DNA of 64,000 bases from a virus, in IMG/VR virus record IMGVR_UViG_3300003322_000872, positions 612 through 64,611 of that record. The stretch is one strand, 5' to 3'. The notes beneath the pieces were generated by a model. That model did not search any database. It worked only from the letters and a program-made list of their open reading frames with translations, and had not been told where the DNA came from. Below are positions 28,446-62,834 of the stretch, piece after piece. The position numbers and the translations under genes were made by a program. Position 1 is the first letter of the stretch, and the number at the start of each line of letters is the position of its first letter.

Positions 28446-28746
28446 CCATTTCAACGGCCTCACACCCAAGGACGCCGAGCTATTAGCCATGCTCTCTGAA
28501 GAAGCGGCCGAGATCATACAGATCAAGGAAAAGATCATGCGGCATGGTTTTGATAGTCATCATCCAGCAAAGAGATACGGTCCAAATAACCGAATAGAGC
28601 TATCAAGGGAAATTGGTGATCTCCTCGGAGTATATGATCGGCTTGTAATGTTGGGGATTATTGATCCGCATGAAGTCGACATATATCGAGCCTCTAAGAT
28701 GGATCGCGCCAAGCCCTATCTACACCATCAAGACGATCCGGGGTAG
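28438..28746 (+). CDS. MazG-like nucleotide pyrophosphohydrolase-fold protein
   Basis: EEAAEIIQ..EK..RHG...REIGDLL acidic helical motif. Confidence 0.65.
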   Translation: MTDHFNGLTPKDAELLAMLSEEAAEIIQIKEKIMRHGFDSHHPAKRYGPNNRIELSREIGDLLGVYDRLVMLGIIDPHEVDIYRASKMDRAKPYLHHQDDPG

Positions 28747-28826
28747 TAGCTCAATGGTAGAGCACTTGCGTGTAGTGGCCACCCTGGACGCAAGGGTTGG
28801 AGGTTCGATTCCTCCCTATTCCACCA
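28740..28826 (+). tRNA. Atypical tRNA-like gene with a 20-nt anticodon loop; G3:U70 and A73 (Ala-type acceptor)
   Basis: Acceptor GGGGTAG/CTATTCC+ACCA; D arm GCTC-AATGGTA-GAGC; stem CTTGC/GCAAG; T arm GGAGG-TTCGATT-CCTCC. Confidence 0.8.
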
Positions 28827-59478: not shown

Positions 59479-60395
59479 TTGAACCTCTGTCTCGGGGCAC
59501 CTTCCCCGGTTTTCACCCGCATATATTTATCGAGTTCGCAAAGCGAATGCTCGATATCCCGCATTTCCAGGGACGGCCACTCAGCGGGCCAGAGCTCACG
59601 ATCTTCGGACAAGAATAACAGCTGCCGCATTTCCTCGATAAATTTGGCCTTGGGTTGCTTGAACTTAAGATCGCGGCCGAGTAGCCGGTTAAGACCACGC
59701 ATCGCGCCGGGGCCAGGATTGGCCCACGTCATGATGTCGGGAGCCTTGTTAAGCAGAGGCGTATGGCGGAGATCGGTTACGATCTCATAGGCCATGAAGT
59801 CACCGAGGTAGGGAAACTGACGGAGCCAATACCATACATCTTCAAGCTTCATATTGTCTTCAATAAGCATACGAACAGTGGCCCCCTTCCAATCATATGC
59901 TTCGCTCATGGGAAAATGCCTATAGAACGTATAAAATTGCTCAACGCACCACAGTACACCATCCAACTTAGATTTCCCATCCGGGGTCTTGATAATATAC
60001 GACCCTGTCACATACGGACCCTTACCGCAGTAACTGACAAGAGCCGATCGGATCGCGCCGGTATTCCCCCCGGACCCGACAAATTCGTCCCACGCGGTGG
60101 CACCGGGGGGAGACGTGTCCATGCGAGTTTGATCAAAGATGGCTTCTCCGGCTGCGATCCGGTTAAACCAGCGAAAGAGGACAGTGGCAAGCAATACATT
60201 ATCCACTGGCACTCTTTTGCGGACATGTTCGCGCAGCCAGATCGTGGTGCGATCTAACTCACGGAACACATTACAGAAGCGATATTCCTGGAAAATCGGA
60301 TCGTTGGTCCATTGCCCGCGCGGCAACCCGGCCTGCCGATTTAGATAAATCTGGTGGCGAGCGCGCATGTAGTCAAAGAGGGGCGAGGCGTCCAT
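59475..60395 (-). CDS. aGPT-Pplase / amino acid:DNA transferase-like protein (paralogue 1)
   Basis: ATG 60395 with SD AGGAG; RHQIY..R..G.P...WT.DPI...YRFCNVFRELDRTT...FRWFN...TG.YII...G.FMAYEIVTDL...GPGA.RGL...EH.LCE.DKY. Confidence 0.9.
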   Translation of the reverse strand: MDASPLFDYMRARHQIYLNRQAGLPRGQWTNDPIFQEYRFCNVFRELDRTTIWLREHVRKRVPVDNVLLATVLFRWFNRIAAGEAIFDQTRMDTSPPGATAWDEFVGSGGNTGAIRSALVSYCGKGPYVTGSYIIKTPDGKSKLDGVLWCVEQFYTFYRHFPMSEAYDWKGATVRMLIEDNMKLEDVWYWLRQFPYLGDFMAYEIVTDLRHTPLLNKAPDIMTWANPGPGAMRGLNRLLGRDLKFKQPKAKFIEEMRQLLFLSEDRELWPAEWPSLEMRDIEHSLCELDKYMRVKTGEGAPRQRFK

Positions 60396-60437
60396 CGGTG
60401 ATCTCCTGTTTAGATCGTTTATGCCGTATGAGGTCAT

Positions 60438-60477
60438 AAAAGAAAAGGGCCAGCACCATCTCTGGTTACTGACCCTT
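60438..60477 (-). terminator. Rho-independent terminator closing the ncRNA locus
   Basis: AAGGGTCAGTAACCA-GAGA-TGGTGCTGGCCCTT followed by TTCTTTT. Confidence 0.75.
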
Positions 60478-60542
60478 CCGGATACTTCGAGGCGCTCTGC
60501 CCGGTCATGGAGCCCGGCTGTACATTACCTCCCTCTTGTACC

Positions 60543-60630
60543 CACAGCGACGAAATCTAAGCAGATTCCTCGGATGCTTAATCCGAAGCTTTGGTTTGGA
60601 AAGCTGTAATCCGCTCAAGCATTCGCTGTA
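60543..60630 (-). ncRNA. Second Y RNA-like RNA (no tRNA module; YrlB/Yrn-like)
   Basis: UACAGCGA-AUGCU-UGAGCGGAUU ... AAUCUGCUUA-GAUUUCG-UCGCUGUG long stem; two apical hairpins (AGCUUU/AAAGCU, UCGGAU/AUCCGA); shares GCGAAUGCUUG and UCGUCGCUG with the first Y RNA. Confidence 0.75.
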
Positions 60631-60635
60631 TTCTT

Positions 60636-60712
60636 TGGTGGGGTTCGATAGTTCCAACAGGAGAGCCCAACGAGCGTCCCTCGATCTGGTACAAAACCTT
60701 TAACACCACCCC
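60636..60712 (-). ncRNA. 77-nt structured element ending in ACCA
   Basis: 5' GGGGU pairs with ACCCC followed by A-CCA; bulged long stem with two inner hairpins; no canonical T arm. Confidence 0.4.
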
Positions 60713-60785
60713 GACGATGATCAATCGCCGGTATAGAACTTTAGGAGAACCGAACGACTAAGGCTATTAGTCCGATCCTCCACAT

Positions 60786-60924
60786 ACCCATCAGCGACGA
60801 GTAGTGTATAGACGTTTACCGCGTCCTAACCACTAGACGATCACTCTTGGCAGAGCGAGTCGGACTCGAACCGACGTTTCGGGCTAGCAAAGCCTGTAGT
60901 CCATACAAGCATTCGCCAATGGGT
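60786..60924 (-). ncRNA. yrlA: YrlA-type Y RNA (circularly permuted tRNA mimic on a Ro60-binding-type stem)
   Basis: Outer stem ACCCAUUGGCGA/UCGCUGAUGGGU with GGCGAAUG (GNCGAAN0-1G); inner stem UGUAUGGAC/GUCUAUACA; T arm GUCGG-UUCGAGU-CCGAC, acceptor UCGCUCU-GCCA-AGAGUGA and D arm GUCU-AGUGGUUA-GGAC in T-AS-D order. Confidence 0.88.
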
Positions 60925-60979
60925 GACACAGGGCTTACGCCCAGTGTTTCGCTCTTGTGCGGTAGAGCTCATCAGACCC
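60921..60979 (-). ncRNA. Type I hammerhead ribozyme, predicted cleavage GUC/ between 60925 and 60924
   Basis: GGGU-CUGAUGA-GCUCU(ACCGCACA)AGAGC-GAA-ACAC(U)GGGC(GUAA)GCCC(U)GUGU-C/ACCC: intact core and three stems. Confidence 0.92.
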
Positions 60980-61270
60980 GTATTCGGTGCCCGCTACGCT
61001 CTTCGTCCTATGTTACACTCGGACTCCGGGTACGTAGCGGGCGGTCGGCGTTGTTCATTTCCCCGATATTTTTACAGCCTTAACCCTCGGGGTGAGCGGG
61101 GTATTAACTCGATTTTAGTTTTCCCCGGCTCTGCAGTCCTGAGCTTGGGGAGGGACGTATCCCAGATTTATCCTATCTCTAGAGGCCTTCTAAGCGGACT
61201 TGCAGGTTTGCGGTCGGCTAGTGCTGCGGCCTAGGTTCAAGATAAGGCAAGAGGAATCACAAGTAAAGGC

Positions 61271-61714
61271 TCATTTCTGGGCTTGTTTCATCCACTCATC
61301 GAAGCGCGCCATTCGTTCGTTGAGATTATCCTCACCATACTTACGAACGAGCTCCTTAACCCGCGTCCAATCGGGTACGGATTTAGGATTGGTTTCCACC
61401 TTGGAATAGGACAGCCCTCGAAGGAATCCGTAGGCGATTAGGGCCGATCGCGCTTCGGACCGCACTTCACCGGTGCGATGGTAACGGAGGCCCCAGAAAA
61501 TCTGGAGGTTACGATCGGAAGGCGCGATCAACTTACGGGTAAGTTTTTGGCGCTCGGTATCGGTAAGGTCGTTGGACCGGGCAAGCATGCGGCGAGCACG
61601 CACTCGGCCCCGATGCCCCACGTTATGTCGGCGCTCCTCACGATGAATCATCGTGGCTTCAGCAGCGAGGGACATGATTTTGATTTTCAGATAGGTATGC
61701 ATGATTTTCTCCAT
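61271..61714 (-). CDS. Conserved phage hypothetical protein
   Basis: YLKIKIMSLAAEA..I..EERR...HR..EVR.EAR...IAYGFLRG..Y..VE. Confidence 0.7.
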   Translation of the reverse strand: MEKIMHTYLKIKIMSLAAEATMIHREERRHNVGHRGRVRARRMLARSNDLTDTERQKLTRKLIAPSDRNLQIFWGLRYHRTGEVRSEARSALIAYGFLRGLSYSKVETNPKSVPDWTRVKELVRKYGEDNLNERMARFDEWMKQAQK

Positions 61715-61774
61715 TGTGTTATATGATGATGGGGAGGAGAAAATCTAGGTGGTGATCGGGCAGTCTACATGGAA

Positions 61775-61849
61775 TGGTATCCTATGAGGGAATCGAACCC
61801 TCCCACTGGGTTTTAGAGGCCCTGCTTCAACCACCGAAGCTCATAGGAC
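61775..61849 (-). tRNA. tRNA with CUA anticodon (amber-suppressor type)
   Basis: Acceptor GTCCTAT/ATAGGAT+ACCA; D arm GCTTC..GAAGC; loop CT-CTA-AA on a weak stem (3 G-C pairs); T arm GAGGG-TTCGATT-CCCTC. Confidence 0.8.
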
Positions 61850-61949
61850 TTAAATTTGTTCCCTCACCCAAGAGCAACTTGATCTATAACCGTCCGGCCC
61901 TTACTATCGGATACCGGCTGAGAGCACATGTTTTATAAACCGATCACGG

Positions 61950-61989
61950 TAAAAAAGAAAACCCACCTCTTCTCGAAAAAGAGATGGGT
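61950..61989 (-). terminator. Rho-independent terminator
   Basis: ACCCATCTCTTT-TTCG-AGAAGAGGTGGGT-type hairpin followed by TTTCTTTTTT on the minus strand. Confidence 0.65.
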
Positions 61990-62039
61990 CATCGATCTGC
62001 ACTTGCTTACCCAGGATCGCACCCCCTGGAGGCGACCGA

Positions 62040-62834
62040 TTACTTGATGTTGATGAAGCCCTGCTTGGTATCCCAGTTAAGGTCGGCGCGGACGATACCG
62101 GCTTCCATGGCTTCCTTCACGGTCATGCCGGATTTGTACTTGAGAAACCGGTTGCCGGCGGCGGAGCCCGCGCGCTTCGGGCTGTAGAACGTGCCGTCGG
62201 ACTGCGGGCCGTAGGTCTTGTTCTCGTTGTCCTTGCCGAACGTGATCACGCCAGTTTCCGGGAACTTAGCGGTCTTGGGTCCGGTGGTGGTGGCTTCGCC
62301 ATTTGCGGCGGCCTTCTTGGTTTTGGTGGTTGCGGCGGCTTCGTCGGCCATTTTGGTACTCTCTTCTGTTGGGTGGCGACGCTGTATAACGCCCTCCACG
62401 CGGGTTTTCTGTCGATCAAGGGCTATGAGACGCAGTACCTCTGCTGGGTCCGAAGGAGGCCGCTGGGCATGGGATACTAGAAGGTTCCACAACCGTTCCA
62501 GGTACTCCGTCACTCGCTTCTTGCCATCTAATTCGAGCGCCAACCTCTCTTCACCGAGACGATAGGCGATCCGAACCAGTTCTAAATTCGACCAGAGCTT
62601 TGGGATATCCGAGGGACCTCGGCATAGGGCATCACCATATTGGATAAGGGCATGCTCGTCCGCTTTTTCGAGGCTATCAAATAACCATAAATCGCCCAAG
62701 CCTCCTCGAGTAACTGCGATGCACTGCATTCTCATATCCTTACCTGACTGATCTATATTCGGTGAGTACAGATATAAAAAGCCCCTGTTCTCGACATTTG
62801 TAAGCCATGTATCAGATATTATAGCATAATCCAC
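62040..62834 (-). CDS. Hypothetical protein whose C-terminal 103 aa (ATG 62351) carry the 'PKRxGS...DxxWD' domain (paralogue 3)
   Basis: SPKRAGSAAGNRFLKY...DLNWDTKQGFINIK; codon style changes at MADEAAAT. Confidence 0.7.
   Translation of the reverse strand: MDYAIISDTWLTNVENRGFLYLYSPNIDQSGKDMRMQCIAVTRGGLGDLWLFDSLEKADEHALIQYGDALCRGPSDIPKLWSNLELVRIAYRLGEERLALELDGKKRVTEYLERLWNLLVSHAQRPPSDPAEVLRLIALDRQKTRVEGVIQRRHPTEESTKMADEAAATTKTKKAAANGEATTTGPKTAKFPETGVITFGKDNENKTYGPQSDGTFYSPKRAGSAAGNRFLKYKSGMTVKEAMEAGIVRADLNWDTKQGFINIK

What the first reader, a model, noticed from the sequence alone, without database searches (positions are those of the whole stretch)
60786..60979. Hammerhead ribozyme fused to, and predicted to generate the 5' end of, a phage Y RNA
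Seen: a complete type I hammerhead (CUGAUGA, 5-bp stem II, GAAA, stem III with GUAA tetraloop, GUC cleavage triplet). Its 3' stem-I strand (ACCC) is also the first four nucleotides of the Y RNA outer stem. Cleavage between 60925 and 60924 would release an RNA starting ACCCAU, which pairs with AUGGGU at the Y RNA 3' end, so the same strand switches from ribozyme stem I to the Y RNA stem. Established: hammerheads leave a 5'-OH and a 2',3'-cyclic phosphate, and bacterial Y RNA/Rsr operons are often linked to RtcB, which joins such ends. Inference: the phage matures a Y RNA by self-cleavage, giving a 5'-OH end that might resist 5'-monophosphate-dependent decay or feed RNA ligation. I do not know of a described ribozyme-processed Y RNA.
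Basis: partly seen in the sequence, partly recalled or inferred. Interest (0 to 1): 0.95.

Follow-up and report, generated by a model that had tools for sequence, protein, structure and literature searches.

The report
Hammerhead ribozyme fused to phage Y RNA
An uncultured soil phage carries a self-cutting hammerhead RNA joined directly to the front of a Y RNA, and the same joint recurs in several other phages, so these ribozymes probably trim the Y RNA's front end, a role not described before.

Summary
A complete type I hammerhead lies at 60921-60979 on the minus strand, with predicted cleavage between 60925 and 60924. It is the only hammerhead core in the 77-kb phage genome. It abuts a YrlA-like Y RNA (60786-60924). 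The ribozyme's stem I 3' strand forms the first four bases of the Y RNA's 12-bp terminal helix.

The arrangement is not a one-off. Pattern scans of viral and metagenome contigs found the same fusion in about eight lineages. In all of them the catalytic core is invariant, all three stems covary, and the cleavage site lies 0-2 nt from the base of the Y RNA helix. About 5 of 50 non-redundant phage Y-like RNAs carry it, against 2 of 2703 control windows.

A model built only from the other loci recovers the window's copy (E about 1e-4). Phage Y RNAs that directly follow a tRNA lack the ribozyme.

No Ro60 or RtcB gene is present in the phage, and no RNA reads were available. Cleavage, the 5'-OH end and any RtcB link therefore remain inferred. 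No paper in the library describes this fusion. I rate it a new variant of known kinds, well supported by comparison and untested at the bench.

The parts
60921..60979 (-). Type I hammerhead ribozyme, minimal form. Stem I is GGGU/ACCC. The core is CUGAUGA...GAAA. Stem II is 5 bp with an 8-nt loop. Stem III is 8 bp plus a U.U mismatch, with a GUAA loop. The cleavage triplet is GUC, with predicted cleavage between 60925 and 60924.
   Evidence: Sequence read. Unique core match in the window and in the whole phage. Weak Rfam HH9 hit. Recovered by model R1, built from other loci only. Covariation of all three stems among 11 hammerhead-Y sequences.
60786..60924 (-). YrlA-like Y RNA. It has a 12-bp terminal helix (60924-60913 with 60797-60786) that carries the Ro60-type motif GGCGAAUG. 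It also has an inner 9-bp helix and a tRNA-like module: T arm 60875-60859, closed acceptor-like hairpin 60858-60841, D arm about 60840-60821.
   Evidence: Rfam YrlA, 33.4 bits, E 7.5e-5. Minimum-energy fold with z -3.4. Shared architecture and covariation with 10 other phage YrlA-like RNAs, including L047, which passes Rfam's gathering score.
60921..60924 (-). Shared strand ACCC. It is the 3' strand of hammerhead stem I before cleavage and the first four bases of the Y RNA terminal helix after cleavage.
   Evidence: Sequence read. Pairing tables. The same dual use is seen in L047, L112, L126, L149, L224, L258, L275, L288 and L306.
60993..61042 (-). Stable hairpin (11 base pairs in the predicted fold) immediately 5' of the hammerhead. 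It may insulate the ribozyme or protect the end of the upstream fragment.
   Evidence: Fold. Comparable hairpins sit just upstream of the hammerhead in L126, L149, L224 and L112.
60543..60630 (-). Second, shorter Y-like RNA (YrlB-like) in the same non-coding island. It has the same GCGAAUGC...UCGUCGC docking helix but no hammerhead.
   Evidence: Sequence read. Fold with z -3.7.
60438..60476 (-). Terminator-like hairpin followed by a U run. It is the probable end of the non-coding transcript, just before the next gene.
   Evidence: Sequence read. Weak ctRNA-like terminator alignment. The simple terminator scan did not call it.

Best explanation
The 830-nt gene-free island (60438-61270, minus strand) is transcribed as one non-coding RNA that holds a hammerhead, a YrlA-like Y RNA and a second Y-like RNA.

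As the RNA is made, the hammerhead folds first. It uses the first bases of the Y RNA (ACCC, perhaps more) as the 3' strand of its stem I. It then cuts itself after C60925. This removes everything upstream and leaves a Y RNA that starts at A60924 with a 5'-hydroxyl.

About 130 nt later the Y RNA's 3' strand is transcribed. The freed 5' strand pairs with it to form the 12-bp terminal helix that carries the Ro60 docking site. This strand swap makes the cut irreversible.

The ribozyme does for a Y RNA what RNase P does for a tRNA, or what tRNA 3' processing does for an RNA that follows a tRNA. It gives an exact 5' end at the base of the terminal helix, independent of host nucleases and of the position of the transcription start.

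The mature Y RNA presumably binds the host's Ro60/Rsr, because the phage has none.

Shown: the motifs, their uniqueness, the recurrence, the covariation and the junction geometry. Inferred: the cleavage, the end chemistry, Ro60 binding and the benefit to the phage.
For: **Motifs in the window.**
- All defining hammerhead core bases and three helices are present.
- It is the only core match in the 77-kb genome.

**Recurrence, without selecting for a hammerhead.**
- A scan for Y RNAs alone found 64 phage Y-like RNAs, about 50 non-redundant.
- Six of them (five non-redundant) have a complete hammerhead directly 5'. One more (L230) has a hammerhead wrapped round the Y RNA.
- The same detector hit 2 of 2703 control windows.

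**More lineages.** Metagenome contigs add L250, L258, L275, L288 and L306.

**Covariation across 11 sequences.**
- The core is invariant while stems I, II and III change sequence and stay paired.
- 95.6% of cells are paired, against 74.5% in shuffles and 27-38% when partners are slid.
- 7 of 13 pairs show compensatory changes.

**Independent recovery.** A covariance model built without the window, L047 or L250 recovers all three over its full length.

**Junction geometry.** In every lineage except L250 (where the script found no clear partner) the cleavage site lies 0-2 nt from the base of the Y RNA terminal helix, and the stem I 3' strand is the helix's 5' strand.

**Genuine Y RNA partner.** L047's Y RNA passes Rfam's YrlA gathering score. 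It sits in the order tRNA-Asp, hammerhead, YrlA, tRNA-Thr.

**Alternative routes look mutually exclusive.** Y RNAs with a tRNA 14 nt or less upstream have no hammerhead, and hammerhead carriers have no tRNA within 40 nt upstream.

**Folding.** The isolated hammerhead regions of L112 and L047 fold close to the three-way junction as their minimum-energy structure.
Against: - No experiment or RNA read shows cleavage or a 5' end at 60924.
- The window's own copy is one of the weaker ones. Stem I is 4 bp and stem III has a U.U mismatch. The hammerhead fold (-31.2 kcal/mol with an extended stem I) is 1.4 kcal/mol above a competing fold that hides GGGU and part of the core.
- In the full-length RNA the 12-bp Y helix beats stem I, so cleavage must happen during transcription.
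- Rfam hammerhead and YrlA scores are below the gathering thresholds.
- Most phage Y RNAs (about 90%), including the second one in this same island, have no ribozyme. The ribozyme is therefore not needed for Y RNA biogenesis in general.
- Cultured phages with YrlA-like RNAs lack it.
- No Ro60 gene is present, so the RNA's partner is assumed.
Confidence: 0.65

Rival explanations
1. The hammerhead is active, but its job is general transcript segmentation. It detaches the non-coding island from the upstream mRNA (ORF 61271-61714), like the hammerheads that flank genes in prophages. Its position next to the Y RNA would then be incidental to Y RNA biogenesis.
For: Phage and prophage hammerheads often flank genes or gene blocks, and mRNA processing has been proposed for them (PMC3088659). 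True hammerheads that precede ordinary genes turned up in my own scans, for example the L141/L154 group and L155. In L230 the cut also separates the Y RNA from a downstream gene.
Against: The cleavage site is fixed at 0-2 nt from the base of the Y RNA helix in about eight lineages with otherwise different sequences, and stem I is built from the Y RNA's own strand. It is the only hammerhead in this genome. In L047 only the Y RNA, and none of the four flanking tRNAs, has a hammerhead.
Confidence: 0.15
2. The window's hammerhead is a decaying or very slow copy. The Y RNA's 5' end in this phage would then be made by host nucleases or by a transcription start.
For: Stem I is short (4 bp), stem III has a U.U mismatch, a competing upstream hairpin is present, and the hammerhead fold is not the minimum-energy fold. 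It has the lowest model score among the carriers apart from L250.
Against: Every catalytic core base is intact. The helix-base geometry is the most exact of all copies, giving a blunt 12-bp helix. Tertiary contacts and co-transcriptional folding are not captured by the energy model. No sigma-70-like promoter is found near the Y RNA.
Confidence: 0.12
3. The hammerhead-like motif next to a Y-like RNA is a chance match.
For: Both Rfam scores are below gathering. The bare core pattern has 0.13 chance matches per window.
Against: Three stems, exact abutment, recurrence in independent contigs, covariation and the control rate of 2 in 2703 all argue against chance.
Confidence: 0.02

Closest known systems
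Type I hammerhead ribozymes of bacteria and phages (Perreault et al. 2011, PMC3088659; Rfam clan CL00010)
   Same: Identical catalytic core, a three-way junction with stem I open, and a location in phage intergenic DNA.
   Different: Known phage hammerheads flank protein genes and have no assigned substrate. Here stem I is made from the 5' strand of a defined non-coding RNA, and the cut coincides with that RNA's helix base. Rfam hammerhead models score the window's copy only at 17.6 bits (E 0.63) and report nothing at E 0.5 or better for the other carriers.
YrlA/YrlB bacterial and phage Y RNAs (Chen et al. 2014, PMC4201824; Rfam RF02553) and phage phiLo Yrl1/Yrl2 with phiRo60 (PMC12135203)
   Same: Terminal helix with the GNCGAA(N)G Ro60 motif, a tRNA-like T, D and acceptor module, and a tandem long and short pair of Y RNAs.
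   Different: Described YrlA genes lie within 4 kb of a Ro60 gene, and no ribozyme is mentioned. Here there is no Ro60 gene in the phage, and the 5' end is set by a hammerhead.
Theta (minimal HDV-like) ribozymes next to phage tRNAs (Kienbeck et al. 2024, PMC10879173)
   Same: A small self-cleaving ribozyme fused in cis to a tRNA or tRNA-like gene in a phage, proposed to replace host nucleases in end maturation. The setting includes tRNA arrays and a suppressor tRNA nearby.
   Different: It is a different ribozyme class and acts on the opposite end. Theta ribozymes are proposed to cut tRNA 3' trailers. The hammerhead here cuts at its own 3' side and so makes the 5' end of the downstream RNA. 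The cargo is a Y RNA, not a tRNA.
Synthetic ribozyme-flanked RNA cassettes (a 5' hammerhead whose stem I is designed from the cargo's first bases; own knowledge, not tested here)
   Same: The same design logic. Stem I borrows the first bases of the cargo, so the cut leaves an exact 5' end.
   Different: This would be a natural version, with the added strand swap into the cargo's own terminal helix.

Membership tests
Hammerhead ribozyme, type I | Conserved core: C3 U4 G5 A6 N7 G8 A9, G12 A13 A14, the A15.1-U16.1 pair, and H17 before the cleavage site | tested here: met
   CUGAUGA 60975-60969, GAA 60950-60948, A60947-U60926, C60925.
Hammerhead ribozyme, type I | Three helices round the core, with stems II and III closed by loops and stem I open | tested here: met
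   Stem I has 4 bp, stem II 5 bp, stem III 8 bp plus one mismatch. The fold is the minimum-energy structure once sequence upstream of 60990 is left out.
Hammerhead ribozyme, type I | Helices supported by covariation among homologues while the core stays invariant | tested here: met
   Among 11 hammerhead-Y sequences, 7 of 13 pairs show compensatory changes and 95.6% of cells are paired, against 74.5% in shuffles.
Hammerhead ribozyme, type I | Score at or above the Rfam gathering threshold of a hammerhead model | tested here: not met
   Best hit is Hammerhead_HH9 at 17.6 bits against a gathering score of 52. The other carriers are also missed at E 0.5.
Hammerhead ribozyme, type I | Stem I to loop II tertiary contact that gives fast cleavage at physiological Mg | tested here: inconclusive
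   A weak extended stem I with internal loops is possible. No contact could be assigned.
Hammerhead ribozyme, type I | Site-specific self-cleavage giving 2',3'-cyclic phosphate and 5'-OH ends | not testable with these tools
   No RNA runs hold the locus.
YrlA-type Y RNA (RF02553) | 5' and 3' ends paired in a long helix that carries the GNCGAA(N)G motif | tested here: met
   GGCGAAUG lies in a 12-bp terminal helix. The motif definition is from PMC4201824.
YrlA-type Y RNA (RF02553) | tRNA-like module (T arm, D arm, acceptor-like stem) | tested here: met
   The Rfam alignment covers all model positions. The arms are shared and covary with 10 other phage RNAs.
YrlA-type Y RNA (RF02553) | Score at or above the Rfam gathering threshold | tested here: not met
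   33.4 bits against 69. The homologous L047 RNA reaches 69.7.
YrlA-type Y RNA (RF02553) | Encoded beside a Ro60/Rsr (TROVE) gene | tested here: not met
   No TROVE match in the 77-kb phage or in five other carrier records.
YrlA-type Y RNA (RF02553) | Binds Ro60/Rsr | not testable with these tools
   The host is unknown and no binding data exist.
Theta / HDV-like ribozyme-tRNA cassettes | HDV-like nested double-pseudoknot ribozyme abutting a tRNA | tested here: not met
   No HDV-like Rfam match at E up to 10 in 59800-62200. The ribozyme here is a hammerhead. The resemblance is functional only.

The most novel reading that the evidence does not exclude
The ribozyme may be kept for the end chemistry it produces, not only for cutting at the right place. 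It would give the Y RNA a 5'-hydroxyl on a blunt helix, invisible to 5'-phosphate- or triphosphate-dependent nucleases and sensors. It would also leave a leader fragment ending in a 2',3'-cyclic phosphate. Such a fragment could act on host RNA-repair signalling, for example the RtcR sensor that switches on the rsr-yrlBA-rtcBA operon. In that case the phage would both trigger and then load the host Ro60 system. One hint is that in L126, L149 and L224 the hammerhead sits right after a hairpin or terminator. That suggests it lies at the very start of a transcript, where a promoter alone could have set the 5' end.
Probability: 0.12. Interest if true: 0.85.

Novelty: new variant of a known kind. 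Interest (0 to 1): 0.7.

Why it matters
Hundreds of hammerhead ribozymes are known in bacteria and phages, but almost none has an assigned substrate or purpose. This finding gives a subset of them a concrete cargo and a testable job: making the exact 5' end of a Y RNA by a strand swap between ribozyme and cargo.

It also shows that phages carry Ro60-type Y RNAs without a Ro60 gene of their own, often inside tRNA arrays. That points to manipulation of the host's RNA quality-control machinery.

Together with the theta ribozymes next to phage tRNAs, it suggests that phages use small ribozymes as built-in processing tools for their non-coding RNAs. Standard Rfam hammerhead models miss these copies, so the class is probably under-counted.

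Tried and rejected
- **Related phages through flanking proteins.** Fifteen relatives of the 5-hmdU kinase-like gene were found, but none has a YrlA or the non-coding island. The upstream ORF has no relatives.
- **BLAST against 50,697 phage records.** The window's island gave no match. The L126 and L112 fusions gave none either. The L047 query matched only tRNA-like parts.
- **Bacterial and archaeal genome contigs.** The strict hammerhead-Y pattern gave 53 hits, none a true fusion.
- **Expression data.** The only holder of the window's stretch is a DNA root metagenome. I therefore did not lay reads.
- **More wrapped-round copies like L230.** Only L230 itself was genuine among 29 hits.
- **Other ribozymes in the island.** I looked for another ribozyme at the YrlA 3' end or upstream of the second Y RNA. 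No Rfam match appeared at E up to 10, and the folds are not informative.
- **Promoters.** Sigma-70-type promoters upstream of the hammerhead: none found in the window, L224, L126 or L112.
- **Alignment quality.** The MAFFT alignment of all 11 fusions (A1) misaligned stem III and the window's stem I. I used my own parse and a model-based realignment instead.
- **Y-likeness filter.** My crude filter wrongly flags long YrlA-type RNAs, the window's included. I use it only to count non-redundant clusters.

Full report
**Setting**

The window is bases 612-64611 of a 77,484-bp IMG/VR virus record rated complete. Its sequence is held by a root metagenome. Genes around the finding are on the minus strand and include a 5-hmdU DNA kinase-family gene, a dCTP deaminase-like gene, a thymidylate-synthase homologue, family A DNA polymerase and ribonucleotide reductase. 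This is a phage with hypermodified thymidine.

An 830-nt stretch without a convincing ORF lies between ORF 61271-61714 and the next gene (annotated start 60437, likelier 60395). A tRNA with a CUA anticodon lies upstream at 61775-61849.

**The observation**

On the minus strand the sequence reads as follows.

- Stem I: GGGU (60979-60976) pairs with ACCC (60924-60921).
- Core: CUGAUGA (60975-60969).
- Stem II: GCUCU/AGAGC with an 8-nt loop.
- GAA, then A60947 opening stem III.
- Stem III: 8 pairs and one U.U mismatch, capped by GUAA.
- Cleavage triplet: U60926 and C60925.

Every defining hammerhead core base is present, and the topology is type I. The core pattern alone is found once in the window (0.13 expected) and once in the whole phage.

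The base after the predicted cut, A60924, starts a 12-bp helix: ACCCAUUGGCGA pairs with UCGCUGAUGGGU (60797-60786). This helix closes a 139-nt RNA. Rfam aligns that RNA over the full YrlA model (33.4 bits, E 7.5e-5, below the gathering score of 69). It folds with z -3.4.

The RNA has the Ro60 motif GNCGAA(N)G defined by Chen et al. 2014 (PMC4201824). It also has a T arm, a D arm and a closed acceptor-like hairpin.

A second, shorter Y-like RNA lies at 60543-60630. It has the same docking helix and no ribozyme.

**Is the fusion more than a coincidence in one genome?**

Relatives found through the neighbouring kinase-family gene lack the non-coding island altogether. I therefore searched by pattern.

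A scan of IMG/VR for a hammerhead core followed by GCGAATGC gave three further independent fusions among chance hits: L047, L112 and L126.

To avoid selecting for the ribozyme, I then scanned for Y RNAs alone, using GCGAATGC, CTACA and the 3' GTCGC strand.

- This gave 64 Y-like RNAs, about 50 non-redundant.
- Six (five non-redundant) have a complete hammerhead directly 5': the window, L047, L112, L126, L149 and L224.
- One, L230, has a hammerhead whose stem III is the Y RNA itself.
- The same detector found a hammerhead in 2 of 2703 random 600-nt control windows from the same loci.

A metagenome scan added L250, L258, L275, L288 and L306. A scan of one genome per prokaryotic species added none.

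**Conservation and covariation**

Across the 11 sequences the core strands are invariant, and each stem has different sequences that stay paired.

- Stem I variants: GGGU/ACCC, GUUAGC/GCUAGC, GCCAA/UUGGC, CGUCAC/GUGGCG, CCUC/GGGG, CGCCAA/UUGGCG, GCCGA/UCGGC and GCCCA/UGGGC.
- Stem II 5' strands: GCUCU, GGCC, GCCGG, GGUU, GCCCG, GCCG, GCUGC and GUCCG.

I built a covariance model from eight of them, leaving out the window, L047 and L250 (A2, R1). It recovers all three left-out sequences over the full model. The window scores 24.8 bits, with E 4e-4 in 615 kb and 9e-5 in 140 kb.

On the model-based alignment:

- 95.6% of cells are standard pairs, against 74.5% in shuffles (0 of 500 reach the observed value).
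- When partners are slid, 27-38% of cells pair.
- 7 of 13 pairs show changes on both sides.

That alignment is fitted to the structure, so it leans towards it. My independent parse gives the same picture.

**Junction geometry**

In every lineage except L250 (where my script found no clear partner strand) the 3' strand of stem I is the 5' strand of the Y RNA's terminal helix. The cut falls 0-2 nt from the base of that helix.

- In the short Y RNAs it is always 3 nt before GCGAAUGC.
- In L047 the helix continues, with one bulged U, to the second base after the cut.
- In the window it is exactly blunt.

L047's Y RNA reaches Rfam's gathering score (69.7 bits). It sits in the order tRNA-Asp, hammerhead, YrlA, tRNA-Thr, tRNA-Gly, and only the Y RNA has a ribozyme. 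In L126, L149 and L224 a tRNA starts 4-8 nt after the Y RNA, so RNase P would set the Y RNA's 3' side.

Of the 64 phage Y-like RNAs, 24 have a same-strand tRNA within 300 nt. The six with a tRNA 14 nt or less upstream have no hammerhead. The hammerhead carriers have no tRNA within 40 nt upstream. This suggests two alternative ways of making the 5' end. The numbers are small.

**Mechanism**

The most likely course has five steps.

1. The hammerhead folds during transcription.
2. It borrows the Y RNA's first bases for stem I.
3. It cuts after C60925.
4. The freed 5' strand later pairs with the Y RNA's 3' strand.
5. The longer Y helix (12 bp against 4) makes the cut irreversible.

A hammerhead cuts near its own 3' side. 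That suits it to making the 5' end of a downstream RNA. HDV-like theta ribozymes do the opposite and are proposed to cut tRNA 3' trailers in gut phages (PMC10879173).

All of this is inference from anatomy and comparison. No RNA data exist for the locus.

**Weak points of the window's own copy**

- Stem I is only 4 bp.
- Stem III has a U.U mismatch.
- A competing hairpin pairs upstream sequence with GGGU and part of the core. The hammerhead fold with a weak extended stem I is -31.2 kcal/mol, against -32.6 for the alternative. It becomes the minimum-energy fold once sequence upstream of 60990 is left out.
- In the full-length RNA the Y helix wins, so the cut would have to be co-transcriptional.

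In L112 and L047 the isolated region folds into or close to the hammerhead three-way junction as its minimum-energy structure.

**Partners**

There is no TROVE (Ro60/Rsr) or RtcB gene in the phage. There is no TROVE gene in the records of L047, L112, L126, L224 and L230, two of which are complete. The Y RNAs would have to use a host Ro60.

Phage Y-like RNAs with a phage Ro60 can bind and damp host PNPase in vitro (PMC12135203). This gives a plausible purpose but is no evidence for this phage.

**What is known**

Full-text searches found no paper that links hammerheads with Y RNAs or YrlA.

- Chen et al. 2014 report YrlA genes only next to Ro60 genes, in 254 bacteria and 22 phages, and mention no ribozyme.
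- Perreault et al. 2011 describe phage and prophage hammerheads that flank genes, with function unknown.

Rfam's hammerhead models score the window's copy only at 17.6 bits (E 0.63) and report nothing at E 0.5 or better for the other carriers. That may explain why the association went unnoticed.

Cultured phages with unannotated YrlA-like RNAs have no hammerhead. These are Xanthomonas phage 10KY502B, Erwinia phage Ea35-70, and Microbacterium phage FuzzBuster, which has a Ro-like gene.

Earlier notes of this scan had already reported phage Y RNAs in tRNA arrays and in phages without Ro60 on other DNA. None reported a ribozyme fusion.

**Verdict**

The reading that the ribozyme makes the Y RNA's 5' end is well supported by comparison, and I give it confidence 0.65. 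The end-chemistry extension is unsupported. This is a new variant of known kinds: a hammerhead with a defined non-coding cargo, and a Y RNA with a ribozyme-made end.

Noticed in passing
L230:135-242 (+): A different layout of the same pair. The Y RNA forms stem III of a type I hammerhead, so the predicted cut (GGGUA|AACGAG) is at the Y RNA's 3' end, about 20 nt before the next gene. The three-way junction is the minimum-energy fold (z -5.2). It has one extra U between the core and stem II and one A.C mismatch. A dedicated scan found no second example.
   Followed up: partly
L112, L288, L258, L275, L306, L224 (and, more loosely, L126/L149): apical loop of hammerhead stem III: Most hammerhead-Y fusions share a conserved 11-nt loop of the form AGUGAUYMACA at the tip of stem III (alignment A2). 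The window, L047 and L250 lack it. Its role is unknown; it could be a tertiary contact or a protein site.
   Followed up: no
window 60993-61042 (-); L126:9104-9125; L224:3028-3050: A stable hairpin sits directly upstream of the hammerhead in several carriers. In L126 and L149 it looks like an intrinsic terminator with a U run. It may insulate the ribozyme's folding, or it may mean the ribozyme lies at the very start of a transcript.
   Followed up: partly
window 60543-60630 (-): A second, YrlB-like Y RNA with the same docking helix (8-bp terminal stem, 10-bp inner stem, two small hairpins) but no ribozyme. How its ends are made is unknown.
   Followed up: partly
window 60628-60785 (-): A 155-nt structured spacer between the two Y RNAs. 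It begins with a long hairpin 6 nt after the YrlA 3' end. There is no Rfam match, and what sets the YrlA 3' end in this phage is unexplained.
   Followed up: partly
window 61775-61849 (-): A tRNA with a CUA anticodon (amber-reading; ARAGORN calls it Pyl, Rfam tRNA scores 31.3 bits). It lies just upstream of the non-coding island, after a strong terminator at 61960-61990. I did not check whether the phage recodes TAG.
   Followed up: no
window 28740-28826 (+): A tRNA-His-like gene with about 13 extra bases in the anticodon loop (Rfam tRNA 56.9 bits, with an 18-nt insert where the model has 5).
   Followed up: no
L381:375-483 and 613-718 (Xanthomonas phage 10KY502B); L380:398-461 (Erwinia phage Ea35-70); L382:406-468 (Microbacterium phage FuzzBuster): Unannotated YrlA-like RNAs in cultured phages (55.9, 25.0, 44.5 and 33.3 bits). 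The FuzzBuster one lies next to a Ro-like protein gene. None has a hammerhead. They could serve as cultured comparison systems.
   Followed up: partly
L047, L112, L126, L149: Rfam 15 hammerhead models give no hit at E 0.5 or better for these canonical hammerheads, probably because of their long stem III. Routine annotation would miss this class.
   Followed up: partly
L126:7361-7484 (+): A Betaproteobacteria-1 RNA (RF02932, 73.4 bits, above gathering) lies 1.7 kb upstream of the hammerhead-Y-tRNA unit in this provirus. It hints at a betaproteobacterial host.
   Followed up: no
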